This document shows, one piece after another, positions 45,001 through 51,000 of a stretch of DNA of 64,000 bases (position 1 is its first letter; every line of letters starts with the position of its first letter). The stretch comes from Escherichia coli (lineage in GTDB: Bacteria; Pseudomonadota; Gammaproteobacteria; Enterobacterales; Enterobacteriaceae), in the NCBI RefSeq assembly GCF_050320075.1, contig NZ_CP190019.1; one strand, 5' to 3'. Position numbers: made by a program.

Positions 45001-48000
45001 TGTCAGTGATGCTGGCTTTAAAGTGCCATGGTATAAATCCGTTGAGAAGCTGGGTTGGTACTGGTTAAGTCGAGTAAGAGGAAAAGTACAATATGCAGAC
45101 CTAGGAGCGGAAAACTGGAAACCTATCAGCAACTTACATGATATGTCATCTAGTCACTCAAAGACTTTAGGCTATAAGAGGCTGACTAAAAGCAATCCAA
45201 TCTCATGCCAAATTCGGCACTGTTGCAAAGTTAGCGATGAGGCAGCCTTTTGTCTTATTCAAAGGCCTTACATTTCAAAAACTCTGCTTACCAGGCGCAT
45301 TTCGCCCAGGGGATCACCATAATAAAATGCTGAGGCCTGGCCTTTGCGTAGTGCACGCATCACCTCAATACCTTTGATGGTGGCGTAAGCCGTCTTCATG
45401 GATTTAAATCCCAGCGTGGCGTTGATTATCCGTTTCAGTTTGCCATGATCGCATTCAATCACGTTGTTCCGGTACTTAATCTGTCGGTGTTCAACGTCAG
45501 ACGGGCACCGGCCTTCGCGTTTGAGCAGAGCAAGCGCGCGACCATAGGCGGGCGCTTTATCCGTGTTGATGAATCGTGGGATCTGCCACTTCTTCACGTT
45601 GTTGAGGATTTTACCCAGAAACCGGTATGCAGCTTTGCTGTTACGACGGGAGGAGAGATAAAAATCGACAGTGCGGCCCCGGCTGTCGACGGCCCGGTAC
45701 AGATACGCCCAGCGGCCATTGACCTTCACGTAGGTTTCATCCATGTGCCACGGGCAAAGATCGGAAGGGTTACGCCAGTACCAGCGCAGCCGTTTTTCCA
45801 TTTCAGGCGCATAACGCTGAACCCAGCGGTAAATCGTGGAGTGATCGACATTCACTCCGCGTTCAGCCAGCATCTCCTGCAGCTCACGGTAACTGATGCC
45901 GTATTTGCAGTACCAGCGTACGGCCCACAGAATGATGTCACGCTGAAAATGCCGGCCTTTGAATGGGTTCATGTGCAGCTCCATCAGCAAAAGGGGATGA
46001 TAAGTTTATCACCACCGACTATTTGCAACAGTGCCGGCGGAACTGCTTATCCACACCCTGACTGAGCGCGTAGCTATAACTGAAGGCCATCTTTTCCGGG
46101 TGGCTTTTGCGATATTTTTTCAGCTCAGTCAGGCTGCTGAATTCCAGGACGTCCCACTCTTCCCCGGTGTTTTTTTTCTTCCCGGCAACAAGAAGCGTGT
46201 ACGACGCGGTGTTAACGTGGATATTTCGGGTACTCATCCTGCTTTCTCCTCTCTCTGGTTTTCAGCCCCCATCATCTGTTGAGTTTCGGGAGCCGCGGTT
46301 TTGACGTTTTGCGGGGACCTGCTCTTTGTTCCCTCCGGTATTAACCATCACCTGTTTGAGAACCTTCGCCGCAAGGGGCATCACTGCCACGGCCGGAAAC
46401 GACTGTCCGGGGGCAGACCGCAAAAGTTTTTGCCTGCTTCTGGGCAAAAAGTTTTGCGGGATGTGCATTTCACCCCTGGACTGGCGGAGACGGTTGTGGC
46501 TGTCTATGCCCCCGGCGACAGGGGCTTAAACAGGTGAATGGCAGCGGACACAACAACGGGCAGGGACCCGCCGCAACGACGTGAAGCGCGGTTTGCGAAA
46601 CTGCGTTGCGCCTTACATCCCTGCGGCCTTTTGCTGGGATGCCTGGAGCGCAGGCCACGGCGCGACAGAGGCGGCGCGACCGGAACGGTCGCTGCAAGCC
46701 CGGGGTTTTCACGCATCGGACCGTAGCGACAGCCCGAAACCGCGCCAGCGGGTTCGGCGGAGACTGGCAGGTGCGCCAGCAGCTGCCTGTCGGAGTCGGG
46801 CCTGACGACCGGATGCCGCCAGGCAGCCGGGAGCCGAAGGTGCGCGTGCGACAGGAAGTCGCTTAACGTATTGTTTTACATTGATAAAACCAGCTATCCC
46901 ATTAGCTGTAGCCTACCGGGACAGGCGCTGCCGGCAACGGCGGGGTCTGAAGCTCCCGGGACAACGAGAGCCGGGCGTCAGCCCGGGTAAAGCCCCGTGA
47001 GGGGCTTTACCTTGCTGCAAGCATCATGTGGCAGGAGAGCAAGGCTGGTCAGAAGGGTTAACACATGTGAACTGTTGATAAACACCGTTATCGGCAACAG
47101 GCCAAAGATGCTGACAGGCCTGAACCAAAAGGTACGGGGTCCGGTTGCTACCTCGCGCACAGGGAGCACATGGGCGCAGAGACCCCCGGTGAAGAGACAG
47201 AACCCGCCCTGACCCTCTGTATGTTAAGCGGAACCTGGTAAACCCGTATCGCTGCCTTACAGGCAGGTGAACCGTAAGGAACACTGTAGGCGGTGCGGGC
47301 AGAGGAGGACGGAAAAAGCAAATGCCCGGTTGTAATGACCGGGATACGGGGCAGGTTCCCCGACGCGAAAGCGGGCAGACTTCCGTCTGGTCTTTAATTG
47401 CATGAAAAGCTGTAAAGCAGTCAAAAGGATATCAGCGAGATGAATACACACATCAGTGTGTCCACGATACCCCACCCGACAGGCTGGCACACCATAGACT
47501 GGAAAGCATGCCATGCCCGGGTGCGAAAGCTACAGTTACGGATTGCAAAGGCAACCCGACAGCAACAATGGCGGCAGGTCAGAGAACTACAGCGCATCCT
47601 CACCCGCTCATTCTCCGGCAAAGCCGTGGCTGTCAGGCGTGTAACTGAAAATACCGGTAAAAGGACACCCGGTATTGACGGAAAAATATGGCACACACCG
47701 AAGGAGAAATGGGAAGGAATATGCAGCCTGAATCTGTGTGGTTACAGGCCACAGCCACTACGGCGAATACATATCCCAAAATCAAACGGCAAAACGCGAC
47801 CGCTGGGCATACCCACAATGAGGGACCGGGCCATGCAGGCACTGTGGCTGCTGGCTCTGGAACCCGTATCCGAGACCACTGCTGACCATAACAGCTATGG
47901 TTTCAGACCAATGCGCAGCACGCATGACGCCATTGAGTCCATTTTTCTGCGGATGAGCCAGAAAGTATCGCCCAAATGGATACTGGAGGGCGATATTAAA

Positions 48001-51000
48001 GGGTGTTTCGATAACATCAGCCATGACTGGCTGCTTTCCCATATTCCGATGGACAGGAGACTGCTTAAAAAATGGTTGAAAGCAGGTTACATGGAAAGAG
48101 GCGTGTTTAACCATACGAACAGCGGGACACCGCAGGGAGGCATCATATCCCCTGTTCTCGCCAACATGGCTCTGGACGGACTGGAGAAGGAACTGATGCA
48201 AACGTTCAGGAAAAGTGGTTATCACAGTGCAAAGCACCAGGTGAATTATGTGAGATATGCTGATGATTTCATCTGTTCAGGCAGCTCCCGTGAATTGCTG
48301 GAAAATGAGGTCAGACCACTGATTGCAGCTTTCATGCGCGAACGAGGGCTGGAACTGTCGGAAGAAAAAACCGCGATTACACATATAGATAAAGGCTTCG
48401 ACTTTTTAGGGCAGAACGTCAGGAAGTACAACGGTAAAATGCTGATTAAACCGTCGAAGAAAAACCTGAAGAACTTCCTCTGTAAAGTCAGAGAAATAAT
48501 TAAACGCAATCCGACGCTCCCGGCATGGAAACTGATAGGCCAGCTAAACCCGGTAATCCGGGGATGGGCTACCTATCACCGACACGTCGTGGCGAAAGAA
48601 ACATTTAATTATGTCGACACCCAAATCTGGCGAGCTATATGGCGATGGTGTGTAAGAAGGCACCCCCGAAAAGGATTGCGGTGGATCGCCGGACGATACT
48701 TCTCCTTTGAAGGCAGGCGCTGGATCTTTAAAGCCATAACCCCGGAAGGGAAAATTCTGACTCTCTTCCGGGCAATGGAAACACCGATAAAGCGCCATAT
48801 AAAAATCAAAGGCGAAGCAACACCATACACCCCCGGAATGGAAATCTACTTTGAACGTCGTCTGGATCTAATCTGGAAAGGCAAATCAAAGAAGATGAAG
48901 ACAGTAGTTCAACTCTGGAAGAGGCAGGGGAAACACTGTCCGCAGTGCGGACAACCCATAACCAACCAGACCGGATGGAATATACATCACCGGATCAGGA
49001 AAGTTATGGGCGGCAGTGACGAACTGACCAATCTCGAGTTGTTACATCCGAACTGCCACCGACAGTTACACAGCAGGGAAGCCGGTGCTCACCGAAAGCA
49101 CTTATAAAGGCTTGAGCGGAGTGCGGGGAAACTCGCACGCTCCGTTCTTAGGGGGCGGCGGCGCAGCAATGTGCCGCTGCTACCCGACCCGGCAGACAGA
49201 ACAACACTGCAGTAGTCAGAATCAGAGCAGTAGATAAAGGAACAACAACATCAGGAACAGTTCCATAACATAAGAAAGAAACACTCCTGAGTCAGACACA
49301 TCACAGACGGGAAGGGTAACGGGCGACGCGCCAGCGTGGCCCGCTTCCCTTCCGGCAGGCGTCAGCCTGCCAGGGGTTTTCGCGCGGGCTGACAGGCGGC
49401 CTCCACCGCCTGCCCCTGTATCACCTGTTTATGCTGCCCTGAAGGATGTAGTGACCGCCGAGGAATACAGCCTGCTGATTCGCCACAAAATCGCAGATTT
49501 CATCAACAATCTGCGCAGTGGTGAGCGGTTTCTGCCCCATTTCACGACGCCGCGCATTAATCACGGCTTTGTAATTGCGCAGAATTTCGCGGGTTTCTGT
49601 GCTGATATTCATGACATGTGCTCCCCGTCCAGCGCCTGTAACACAACGTCCATTGCTTCGCGTTCTTCCCTGACGAATGCGTCACCGTCGCCCCCGTTCT
49701 CGCTCCCGACGGCATACAGGCGCTTCATTTCACTGCCTGCCAGCGCCATCACTTTTTCCAGCATCACCGCCGGAACTGTCACCTGACGGCTGGCGCGCTT
49801 TTCTTCCATCAGCTCACGAACAACGTCGTGAACAATGCTGACATCCGCACCATGCGCAAAGGCATCGTCCAGTCGCTGCATGACGGTTTCCAGCTCATCG
49901 TCTGTCAGACTCCAGTCCTGGGCTATGTGACGCACATCCCCACGGGTCAGCACCACGGCAAAAACGCATTCACTGTCCGGCACGTCTGTGTTCAGCACTT
50001 CGCGGATAATTTCTTTAACAGTACAGTACATGTTCTCGTCTCCTTTACAGGGGCGGCATTGCCGCCCCGTCCGTTAATCAGTCCAGTGCCGCGTAAATCG
50101 CGTTGCATTCGGGGTGAAATTCGATGTGACGCCACAACTGCGCATCGCGCATCCGGTAAAGCTGGGTCAGTCCTGCATCCCCGCTGTCGTGGTACAGCCA
50201 CAACTGGCGGTTAATCACAAGGGAAGTCAGAATGATGCCTGCGGCATCAGCACTCACGGTACGGTCAAACCAGTTTGCACCGTTCACCATGTGGAAACGG
50301 TCGCCATCCGGCATCATGTAACCGCCACCGTCCGGCAGGCGGATGAAGTGCCAGAAGCCTCCCTGATATTCCGGCATCATTTTTTGCGCCAGCGCGTACA
50401 CATACGCCTCGGCATACAGAAAATCGTTGCCAAACAGATACGGTAGAAAGGAGAGACGGTCGCACTCTTCAACGTTCAGAGTGACAGGTTTCGCATATTG
50501 CATGATGTTTTCCTCCGTTGTTCACATATTCCGCGACACCGGGCGGTGCCGTGCCTCCATAAAAGCCGGGCGATAAGGCGGGGATGCACAGGGCGCAAGG
50601 GAAGCCGCAGCCTGACGCACACGGCTGGCGGGAGTTGGAGGGTGAGACCGCGAAATCTGAGCGGGTGAACGACCGGAAAATCACGGCAGACGGGAAGGAG
50701 GGACCGGGTGACCGCAGCGGCGAAGCGTACCCTTGCATCCCTGCCAGCCCGGCTACGATGGAGGCACGGCACAGCCCGCACACGACGCTGAGGCCACATA
50801 ACTGAAAACCCACAAGGCCATGCCCCGCATGGCCGGGTAAAGCGGAGCCGGCGGCGACTTCCTTTGTGCTCTGTCCGGGGACCGGCAGGAAAAAGGCGGG
50901 GATTTACCCCGCCAACGTCATCATTTCCGGATTTTTGCCAGGGCATCCGCCATGCTGCGGATTTCGGCCCGGGCTTCCCGGACCACCTCCCGCAGAACAC

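What the first reader, a model, noticed from the sequence alone, without database searches (positions are those of the whole stretch)
46846..49190. Group II intron with intact RT/maturase/HNH ORF inserted in a GC-rich structured region
The ORF has all three IEP domains and no frameshifts. A domain V-like hairpin (gagcggagtgcggggaaactcgcacgctccgttc) lies just after the ORF stop and GTGCG motifs lie about 600 nt upstream of the ORF start. The element therefore looks potentially mobile.
Basis: partly seen in the sequence, partly recalled or inferred. Interest (0 to 1): 0.4.

Follow-up and report, generated by a model that had tools for sequence, protein, structure and literature searches.

The report
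Known mobile group II intron, IncF plasmid
This is a complete, apparently active group II intron (a self-splicing retroelement) that is already annotated on about a thousand enterobacterial plasmids; the mildly new point is that it and its closest relatives always sit beside the single-strand promoter hairpins of the plasmid's leading region.

Summary
An uninterrupted site in plasmid pAPR100 fixes the junction at GGTGCGC|CCGGCAG. Rfam finds domain I (119.7 bits) and domains V/VI (60.1 bits). The 555-aa ORF has RT (YADD), maturase and HNH domains. Its closest solved relative is the T.el4h RT (E 1e-178), so the class is IIB1/chloroplast-like 1. It is distinct from EcI5 (55.8% protein identity), Kl.pn.I5 and E.c.I11.

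EBS1, EBS2 and EBS2a pair with exon positions -6..-1, -13..-9 and -14. Near-identical copies (98.5-100%) at four unrelated chromosomal sites keep these pairings, which indicates recent retrotransposition. It occurs in 313 of 5,426 complete E. coli genomes and about 1,000 PLSDB plasmids. It is published as the "2,343-bp group II intron" of pHN7A8, so it is already known.

The "GC-rich structured region" is a repeat unit of about 640 bp containing an Frpo-type single-strand promoter hairpin of the IncF leading region. The intron lies on the transferred-strand sense, antisense to the leading genes. A sister intron occupies a site about 105 nt away in the equivalent unit of other plasmids.

The parts
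46846..49188 (+). Complete group II intron, 2,343 nt (5' GUGCGAC ... CUACCCGAC 3')
   Evidence: Empty-site comparison with pAPR100 and four ectopic copies with the same ends. Rfam hits. Same length as the published pHN7A8 intron (PMC8765060).
46852..47237 (+). Ribozyme domain I, containing the exon-binding sites
   Evidence: RNAalifold consensus of five CL1 introns: 81 of 160 pairs keep pairing through compensatory changes. Columns mapped to the window. Rfam D1D4-7 covers 46890-47039.
47089..47095 (+). EBS2a (U, 47089), an A, then EBS2 (UCGGC, 47091-47095), in an unpaired loop of domain I
   Evidence: Complementary to exon -14 and -13..-9. These are the same alignment columns as EcI5's UA-ACCAG-A, whose pairing is shown experimentally in PMC8643678.
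47155..47160 (+). EBS1 (GCGCAC), in a terminal loop of domain I
   Evidence: Perfect 6-bp complement of exon -6..-1, GUGCGC. The same columns in the sister intron read GCUUCC, matching its exon GGAAGC.
47242..47300 (+). Domain II
   Evidence: Consensus structure with covariation.
47302..47395 (+). Domain III
   Evidence: Consensus structure with covariation.
47440..49107 (+). Intron-encoded protein in domain IV, 555 aa: RT (YADD at aa 273), X/maturase, DNA-binding region and HNH endonuclease
   Evidence: Aligns end to end with the T.el4h RT (6me0_C, E 1.2e-178). RefSeq annotates it as ltrA, WP_012372796.1.
49114..49147 (+). Domain V: 34 nt, AGC triad, GAAA loop
   Evidence: Rfam Intron_gpII, 60.1 bits. 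Compensatory pairs seen across five introns.
49151..49185 (+). Domain VI, with the unpaired branch-point A at 49182 (seventh base from the 3' end)
   Evidence: Consensus structure leaves column 78 unpaired. In domains V and VI together, 13 of 29 pairs show compensatory changes.
46832..46845 (+). 5' exon recognition sequence: IBS2a (A, 46832), IBS2 (GCCGA, 46833-46837), IBS1 (GTGCGC, 46840-46845)
49189..49189 (+). IBS3, the first base of the 3' exon (C)
   Evidence: C at +1 in all five independent insertion sites. The partner EBS3 was not located.
46282..46604 (+). Frpo-type single-strand promoter hairpin of the IncF leading region, about 240 nt 5' of the intron on the same strand
   Evidence: Single-stranded DNA fold: -133 kcal/mol, z = -9.6. 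92-94% identical to the F-plasmid segments directly upstream of ygeA and of ssb, where Couturier et al. place Frpo1 and Frpo2 (PMC9849209).
46271..46845 (+). 5' part of the repeat unit of about 640 bp (hairpin plus about 300 bp) that contains the homing site; the unit continues at 49189-49248
   Evidence: Three copies in pEC958 plus pAPR100 are near-identical from -575 to about +60 relative to the insertion point.
45216..46035 (.). IS26 that cuts the leading region and truncates the orf95/ygeA-like gene (46019-46237, - strand) at about codon 67
   Evidence: IS26 terminal repeats, and the start of homology with pAPR100 at 46036.
49421..49612 (-). 63-aa leading-region gene next to the 3' exon, opposite in orientation to the intron

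Best explanation
Window 46846-49188 is a full-length, functional-looking bacterial group II intron of ribozyme subgroup IIB1 and protein class chloroplast-like 1 (CL1).

Inferred mechanism, by homology with EcI5 and T.el4h:
1. The intron is transcribed and folds into the six-domain ribozyme.
2. With the help of its 555-aa protein it splices out as a lariat, branching at A49182.
3. The lariat-protein particle finds an unoccupied DNA site by base pairing. EBS1 GCGCAC pairs with -6..-1, EBS2 UCGGC with -13..-9, EBS2a U with A-14, and an unlocated EBS3 with C+1.
4. It reverse-splices into that strand, the HNH domain nicks the opposite strand, and the RT copies the intron into DNA.

Its natural homing site is GGGAGCCGAAGGTGCGC|CCGGCAG. 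This lies near one end of a non-coding repeat unit of about 640 bp that carries the Frpo-type single-strand promoter hairpin of IncF leading regions. The intron is on the strand that is transferred during conjugation and is antisense to all neighbouring leading genes. It therefore interrupts no gene, and splicing is not needed by the host.

Shown here: boundaries, domains, covariation, intact ORF, EBS-IBS complementarity, presence/absence polymorphism, and near-identical copies at other sites. Inferred: splicing, endonuclease use, and the source of transcription.
For: - Ribozyme: Rfam D1D4-7 scores 119.7 bits and Intron_gpII 60.1 bits. Covariation among five related introns: 81 of 160 pairs in domains I-III and 13 of 29 in domains V-VI are kept through double changes.
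- Protein: RVT_N, RVT_1, GIIM and HNH. TIGR04416 scores 384.9 bits. YADD is present. The match to the T.el4h RT is full length, E 1.2e-178.
- Boundaries: exact empty site in pAPR100.
- Spread: at least 2,007 plasmids carry an uninterrupted site, about 980 carry the intron with its flank, and 313 of 5,426 complete E. coli genomes have it, at 563 plasmid and 49 chromosomal places.
- Target recognition: the EBS2a-A-EBS2 layout is the one proven for EcI5 (PMC8643678). The EcI5 locus I fetched reproduces its published target, which validates the assignment.
- Mobility: near-identical copies (98.5-100%) sit at four other sites: near the 3' end of the annotated rfbK gene, in a GH127 gene (antisense), in a zinc metallopeptidase gene (sense) and in gntU (antisense). 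All keep GCCG at -13..-10, G-6, T-5 and C+1.
- Literature: the 2,343-bp intron of pHN7A8 is polymorphic among FII-33 plasmids, and plasmids with and without it conjugate (PMC8765060). In an evolution experiment, a putative IncF-borne group II intron formed a new junction in the leading region of another plasmid in two replicate populations (PMC10104558).
Against: - No RNA or mobility data for this copy can be obtained here.
- No sigma-70-like promoter above chance was found on the + strand, either within 900 nt upstream in the window or in 3.3 kb upstream in an intact context. How the intron is transcribed is therefore unknown.
- EBS3 could not be located by covariation.
- I could not verify that the intron in the PMC10104558 experiment is this one.
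Confidence: 0.9

Rival explanations
1. The intron looks intact but is an immobile passenger. On this view its wide distribution comes only from plasmid inheritance and from recombination between the repeated Frpo units, not from retrohoming.
For: Most copies are at one and the same site in related IncF backbones. No promoter was identified upstream. The repeat units are long enough to recombine (PMC9849209).
Against: Near-identical copies (98.5-100%) sit at four unrelated chromosomal sites, each with precise intron ends and flanks that match EBS1 and EBS2. There are up to 6 places per genome. The ORF and catalytic motifs are intact.
Confidence: 0.06
2. The element has been co-opted by the plasmid. 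For example, it might insulate the Frpo promoter from upstream transcription, or its RT might serve an anti-defence or defence role among the anti-restriction genes of the leading region.
For: It sits in the leading region next to antirestriction, DNA methylase and DUF1380 genes. The protein gives weak matches to retron and DRT reverse transcriptases.
Against: - Those matches are far below the family cut-offs (56 bits against 235, 46 against 200), whereas the group II family model is passed.
- A complete ribozyme with covariation is retained.
- Plasmids with and without the intron both conjugate (PMC8765060).
- More plasmids have the site empty than filled.
Confidence: 0.03
3. Homing of this lineage is coupled to conjugation. 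The target lies on the transferred strand, so the particle reverse-splices into single-stranded DNA as the plasmid enters or leaves a cell, and complementary-strand synthesis primes cDNA synthesis. The HNH nick would then be dispensable.
For: - This intron and two sister introns are all oriented with their sense on the transferred strand, 35-140 nt from the Frpo hairpin.
- In the single-stranded fold, IBS2 and most of IBS1 lie in the loop of a small GCCGGG/CCCGGC hairpin.
- A putative IncF-borne group II intron invaded a newly introduced plasmid at this region in two replicate populations (PMC10104558).
Against: - The orientation is fixed by the homing site and may reflect a single ancestral event.
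- Two other introns in IncF leading regions (E.c.I11 and EcI5) lie on the opposite strand.
- The protein keeps an intact HNH domain.
- Ectopic chromosomal sites lack the small hairpin.
Confidence: 0.25

Closest known systems
The '2,343-bp group II intron' of pHN7A8 and other FII-33/F33:A-:B- plasmids (PMC8765060; PMC6052338)
   Same: Same length, same IncF leading-region location next to the 63-aa/DUF1380 genes, and the same presence/absence polymorphism. RefSeq annotates it as ltrA, WP_012372796.1.
   Different: Nothing detectable; this is almost certainly the same element. I did not align pHN7A8 itself. Those papers treat it only as a lineage marker, and in the passages I read they do not give its class, EBS/IBS pairings or relation to Frpo.
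T.el4h / Th.e.I3 of Thermosynechococcus (IIB1, CL1; cryo-EM structures 6ME0 and 6MEC)
   Same: Closest solved relative of the protein: full-length alignment, E 1.2e-178, with the same RT-X-D-En layout.
   Different: Cyanobacterial chromosome, different target sequence, thermophilic host.
EcI5 (E.c.I5) of pO157, the E. coli IIB1/CL1 intron used as a targetron
   Same: Same Rfam domain I model. Same EBS2a-A-EBS2-A motif and the same EBS1 loop position. Both have an HNH-containing protein. It also lies in an IncF leading region, upstream of a DUF1281 gene.
   Different: Only 55.8% protein identity and 67% identity in the 5' ribozyme. Different target (CTGGTGCTCGAAT|CGTAT), and opposite orientation relative to the leading genes.
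Sister introns in E. albertii pESA134_1 and in large EIEC/Shigella IncF plasmids
   Same: 60-61% protein identity. Same Frpo-flank module, same strand, same gene neighbours.
   Different: Their target is GCGTCAGGGATGGAAGC|CCGCCA, about 105 nt closer to the hairpin, in the F-type version of the segment. The F plasmid has two empty copies of that site and none of this intron's site. They are rare, with 14 records covering at least 80% of the query.
E.c.I11 of pEC958
   Same: A group II intron in an IncF leading region, next to a Frpo-type unit.
   Different: Unrelated class: 633-aa protein with 34% identity over the RT only. It lies between the hairpin and ssb, in the sense orientation.
Kl.pn.I5 of pK245
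   Same: A group II intron carried on an enterobacterial plasmid.
   Different: Its protein is 495 aa and a different protein (RefSeq WP_004178082.1); many other enterobacterial plasmids carry intron proteins only about 30% identical to this one. It sits in a different context.

Membership tests
Group II intron (ribozyme) | Conserved ends, 5' GUGYG and 3' AY, at an exact insertion boundary | tested here: met
   GUGCG...GAC. Boundaries fixed by the empty site and by four ectopic copies.
Group II intron (ribozyme) | Domain V: 34-nt catalytic hairpin with AGC triad and GNRA loop | tested here: met
   49114-49147. Rfam RF00029 scores 60.1 bits against a gathering score of 40. Compensatory changes seen across five introns.
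Group II intron (ribozyme) | Domain VI with a bulged branch-point adenosine 7-8 nt from the 3' end | tested here: met
   A49182 is unpaired in the consensus structure and is the seventh base from the end. Branching itself is not testable here.
Group II intron (ribozyme) | Domains I-III folding, supported by covariation | tested here: met
   81 of 160 predicted pairs are kept through double changes. RF02012 scores 119.7 bits. The sample is only five sequences.
Group II intron (ribozyme) | Self-splicing with lariat formation | not testable with these tools
   Needs RT-PCR or in vitro splicing.
Mobile group II intron, IIB1 / CL1 class | Intron-encoded protein in domain IV with RT (YADD), X/maturase and D/En (HNH) domains, closest to CL1 proteins | tested here: met
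   Best PDB match is the T.el4h RT (CL1), E 1.2e-178, against LtrA (ML) at 6e-46 and GsI-IIC at 7e-41. No formal phylogeny was built.
Mobile group II intron, IIB1 / CL1 class | EBS1-IBS1 (about 6 bp), EBS2-IBS2 (5 bp at -13..-9) and EBS2a-IBS2a (-14) pairings | tested here: met
   GCGCAC pairs with GUGCGC, UCGGC with GCCGA, and U with A. The positions are homologous to those in EcI5. The pairings are largely kept at four ectopic sites.
Mobile group II intron, IIB1 / CL1 class | EBS3-IBS3 pair at +1 | tested here: inconclusive
   C+1 is invariant in five sites, but the EBS3 nucleotide was not identified.
EcI5 (E.c.I5) | Same element: near-identical sequence and target | tested here: not met
   55.8% protein identity and a different target.
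E.c.I11 | Same element | tested here: not met
   34% identity over the RT only, and a 633-aa protein.
Kl.pn.I5 | Same element | tested here: not met
   The pK245 intron protein is 495 aa and a different RefSeq protein.
Frpo-type single-strand promoter (the flanking 'structured region') | Long imperfect hairpin in the transferred strand, homologous to F Frpo1/Frpo2 and directly upstream of leading genes | tested here: met
   z = -9.6 for the single-stranded DNA fold. 92-94% identity to the F segments upstream of ygeA and ssb (PMC9849209). Promoter activity is not testable here, and I did not convincingly locate the -35 and -10 boxes.

The most novel reading that the evidence does not exclude
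A small lineage of CL1 group II introns has specialised on the flank of Frpo-type single-strand promoter units of IncF leading regions. The lineage comprises this intron and two sister introns with 60-61% protein identity. All are on the transferred strand, and their retargeted EBS sequences hit two different positions about 105 nt apart in two sequence variants of the unit. The unit is multi-copy, non-coding and among the first DNA to enter every new host. Homing may exploit its single-stranded state during conjugation.
Probability: 0.25. Interest if true: 0.55.

Novelty: already known. Interest (0 to 1): 0.27.

Why it matters
As a finding it is ordinary. The element is annotated by RefSeq on hundreds of plasmids and is used in the literature as a lineage marker for FII-33 resistance plasmids.

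Two things are of modest practical value:
- The exact boundaries and EBS/IBS rules given here allow filled, empty and ectopic sites to be called in plasmid surveillance.
- The intron is a natural, apparently very active E. coli CL1 intron that could be developed as a gene-targeting vector alongside EcI5.

The side observation may be more interesting. At least four different group II introns sit in IncF leading regions, and one lineage tracks the Frpo units on the transferred strand. If followed up, this could link retroelement homing to the single-stranded phase of conjugation.

Tried and rejected
- **Identity with named enterobacterial introns.** EcI5 was rejected: 55.8% protein identity and a different target. 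Kl.pn.I5 of pK245 was rejected: its protein is 495 aa. E.c.I11 of pEC958 was rejected: 34% identity. I found no database name for this intron.
- **Promoter for the intron.** No sigma-70 consensus match on the + strand upstream in the window. In the intact context of pAPR100 the matches did not exceed chance. My attempt to read -35 and -10 boxes in the hairpin arms by eye was inconclusive and was dropped.
- **EBS3 by covariation with the +1 base.** The only matching alignment column lies in a domain III helix, so EBS3 was not found.
- **A second homing site in the window.** None found with up to 3 mismatches.
- **The homing site in the F plasmid itself.** Absent. F has a different sequence in that segment.
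- **The 77-aa ORF said to be interrupted (PMC8765060).** ORFs of 51-88 aa cross the site on both strands and are Arg/Gly/Pro-rich. I regard them as probably spurious products of GC-rich repeat DNA, but did not test this.
- **Orientation of chromosomal copies relative to replication.** I considered this, but it would rest on my memory of K-12 gene orientations, so it is left as a next step.

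
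Full report
**1. Observation**

- Rfam's covariance models match domain I (group-II-D1D4-7, 46890-47039, 119.7 bits, E 1e-24). They also match domains V-VI (Intron_gpII, 49112-49188, 60.1 bits) on the + strand.
- Between these hits lies one uninterrupted ORF, 47440-49107, of 555 aa.
- The ORF has Pfam RVT_N, RVT_1, GIIM and HNH domains. It passes NCBI's equivalog model for group II RT/maturases, at 384.9 bits against a cut-off of 300.
- YADD is at residue 273.

**2. Boundaries**

I joined the two flanks and searched plasmids. At least 2,007 records carry the uninterrupted sequence. In pAPR100 it reads ...GAAGGTGCGC|CCGGCAGACAG.

The intron is therefore 46846-49188, 2,343 nt, running from GUGCGAC to CUACCCGAC. 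The number of C residues at the junction excludes any shifted boundary. So does the variable base that precedes GTGCG in four other insertions.

**3. Class and structure**

The protein's closest solved relative is the RT of T.el4h. The alignment is full length with E 1.2e-178, far ahead of LtrA and the IIC RTs. T.el4h is a IIB1 intron with a chloroplast-like 1 RT (PMC8643678).

I fetched four related introns:
- EcI5, on a pO157-like plasmid;
- an intron on an E. coli poultry-farm plasmid (strain RHB47-C15);
- an intron from Mycetohabitans;
- an E. albertii intron.

All four match the same Rfam domain I model.

Aligning the five sequences gave consensus structures with strong covariation. In domains I-III, 81 of 160 pairs are maintained through changes on both sides. 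In domains V-VI the figure is 13 of 29. With only five sequences these are indicative counts, not statistics.

Mapped to the window:

| Feature | Window coordinates |
|---|---|
| Domain I | 46852-47237 |
| Domain II | 47242-47300 |
| Domain III | 47302-47395 |
| Domain V | 49114-49147 |
| Domain VI | 49151-49185 |
| Unpaired branch-point A | 49182 |

**4. Target recognition**

- EBS1 (GCGCAC, 47155-47160) is a perfect complement of exon -6..-1.
- EBS2 (UCGGC, 47091-47095) is a perfect complement of exon -13..-9.
- Two bases upstream of EBS2 is a U that can pair with A-14.

This U-A-EBS2-A layout is the one shown experimentally for EcI5. The EcI5 locus I fetched reproduces its published target (C-18, C-17, A-15, A-14, T+5), which validates the alignment-based assignment. 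In the sister intron the same columns read CCCUG and GCUUCC, matching its own exon CAGGG...GGAAGC. EBS3 was not located.

**5. Evidence of mobility**

The 2,343-nt sequence occurs in 343 of 5,426 complete E. coli genomes. 313 of them hold a near-full copy. There are 563 places on plasmids and 49 on chromosomes, and up to 6 per genome. Of the 473 matching records, 443 have a best match at 99% identity or more.

About 1,000 PLSDB plasmids encode the protein at 99% identity or more. These come from E. coli, Klebsiella, Salmonella and Shigella.

I examined four chromosomal copies:
- near the 3' end of the annotated rfbK gene;
- in a GH127 gene, antisense;
- in a zinc metallopeptidase gene, sense;
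- in gntU, antisense.

All have exactly the same intron ends. All keep GCCG at -13..-10, G-6, T-5 and C+1, and three of the four keep A-14. This is the signature of RNA-guided retrotransposition, not of recombination.

The literature agrees. The "2,343-bp group II intron" of pHN7A8 is present or absent among otherwise similar FII-33 plasmids, and both kinds conjugate (PMC8765060; PMC6052338). In an evolution experiment, a putative group II intron resident on an IncF plasmid produced a new junction in the leading region of another plasmid in two replicate populations (PMC10104558). I could not verify that this is the same intron.

**6. The "GC-rich structured region"**

The flank is 63.5% G+C, against 52% for the whole window.

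Folded as single-stranded DNA, 46282-46604 forms one long imperfect hairpin with z = -9.6. The equivalent region of pAPR100 gives z = -11.2. This segment is 92-94% identical to the two F-plasmid segments directly upstream of ygeA and of ssb. Couturier et al. place the single-strand promoters Frpo1 and Frpo2 there.

In pEC958 the hairpin plus about 300 further bases forms a repeat unit of about 640 bp, present three times. Each copy carries an empty homing site about 60 bp from the unit's edge.

The leading genes are on the window's - strand. In plasmids with intact context, oriT lies to the left. It follows, by inference from the known polarity of F transfer, that the + strand is the transferred strand. 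The intron is thus on the transferred-strand sense, antisense to every neighbouring gene, and upstream of the promoter hairpin with respect to leading-gene transcription. It interrupts no credible gene.

In this particular plasmid, IS26 (45216-46035) has cut the region off from its oriT side.

**7. Relatives in the same place**

An intron with 60% protein identity sits in the same intergenic module and orientation in E. albertii plasmids. A variant with 61% protein identity to this intron (about 91% nucleotide identity to the E. albertii intron) does the same in large EIEC/Shigella IncF plasmids. Their target is a different sequence, GCGTCAGGGATGGAAGC|CCGCCA, about 105 nt closer to the hairpin.

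The F plasmid has two empty copies of that sister site, one beside each Frpo, but none of this intron's site.

Two unrelated or more distant introns also lie in IncF leading regions, in the opposite orientation. These are E.c.I11, between a Frpo unit and ssb in pEC958, and EcI5, upstream of a DUF1281 gene in pO157.

**8. Mechanism and open points**

The best-supported reading is ordinary retrohoming of an endonuclease-containing IIB1 intron.

What remains unexplained is how the intron is transcribed. No promoter match above chance lies upstream on its strand.

The idea that homing uses the single-stranded transferred strand is compatible with three observations:
- the orientation of this lineage;
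- a small hairpin that presents IBS2 and IBS1 in its loop;
- the invasion seen in the evolution experiment.

It is not required by any result. It is weakened by the intact HNH domain and by the two introns on the other strand.

**9. Verdict**

The element is already known and annotated.

What this analysis adds is:
- its exact anatomy and its class (IIB1/CL1);
- its recognition rules;
- direct comparative evidence of recent mobility;
- the observation that its homing site belongs to the Frpo repeat unit of IncF leading regions, a niche it shares with sister introns.

Noticed in passing
L011 (pEC958) about 16020-18680; ssb at 18682: E.c.I11 is a different group II intron: 633-aa protein, Rfam domains V/VI at 18558-18678. 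It sits between a Frpo-type unit and ssb, in the sense orientation. It would therefore be transcribed with the first genes expressed after plasmid entry.
   Followed up: partly
L013 (pO157-like plasmid) 563-2968: EcI5 lies directly upstream of the DUF1281 gene, which in pEC958 is at the far end of the leading region. Counting this intron and its sister introns as two, that makes four different group II introns in IncF leading regions.
   Followed up: partly
L005 (F plasmid), - strand, 13574 and 8186: F carries two unoccupied homing sites for the sister intron, one beside Frpo1 and one beside Frpo2. It has none for the window's intron.
   Followed up: yes
window 46036-49612, compared with L005 and L011: In the window and in pAPR100 a single Frpo unit joins the 63-aa gene directly to orf95. 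The ssb-psiB-hok block found in F and pEC958 is missing. This is as expected from recombination between repeated Frpo units.
   Followed up: partly
window 45216-46035, plus eight further copies (15617, 17958, 23984, 29437, 34383, 36243, 57216, 62819): There are nine IS26 copies in the 64 kb. The one at 45216-46035 truncates the orf95/ygeA-like gene at about codon 67 and separates the leading-region remnant from its oriT side.
   Followed up: partly
window 44466-44535 (-): IS10 RNA-OUT antisense RNA (Rfam, 98.8 bits), next to a truncated IS10-like transposase ORF.
   Followed up: no
window 26855-26933 (+): Class 1 integron attI / aminoglycoside leader motif (Rfam AAC_AAD_leader, 71.2 bits). aac(3)-IId lies at 43525-44409.
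   Followed up: no
L011 12768-12867 (-): The Rfam AS-pc01 antisense RNA lies on the transferred-strand sense, just 5' of a Frpo unit in pEC958. It is a documented transcript running toward an empty homing site. It is absent from the window.
   Followed up: no
H56 and H57 (E. coli plasmids NZ_CP189665.1 and NZ_JBSWAO010000002.1): In these plasmids, copies of this intron are themselves interrupted by an IS3-family element.
   Followed up: no
window 46826-46845 plus 49189-49193 (in the empty site, L002 3281-3305): In the uninterrupted site, GCGGGG-type pairing is formed by GCCGGG and CCCGGC as a 6-bp stem. Its loop holds IBS2a, IBS2 and most of IBS1, and the insertion point lies in the 3' arm. 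The ectopic sites do not share this stem.
   Followed up: partly
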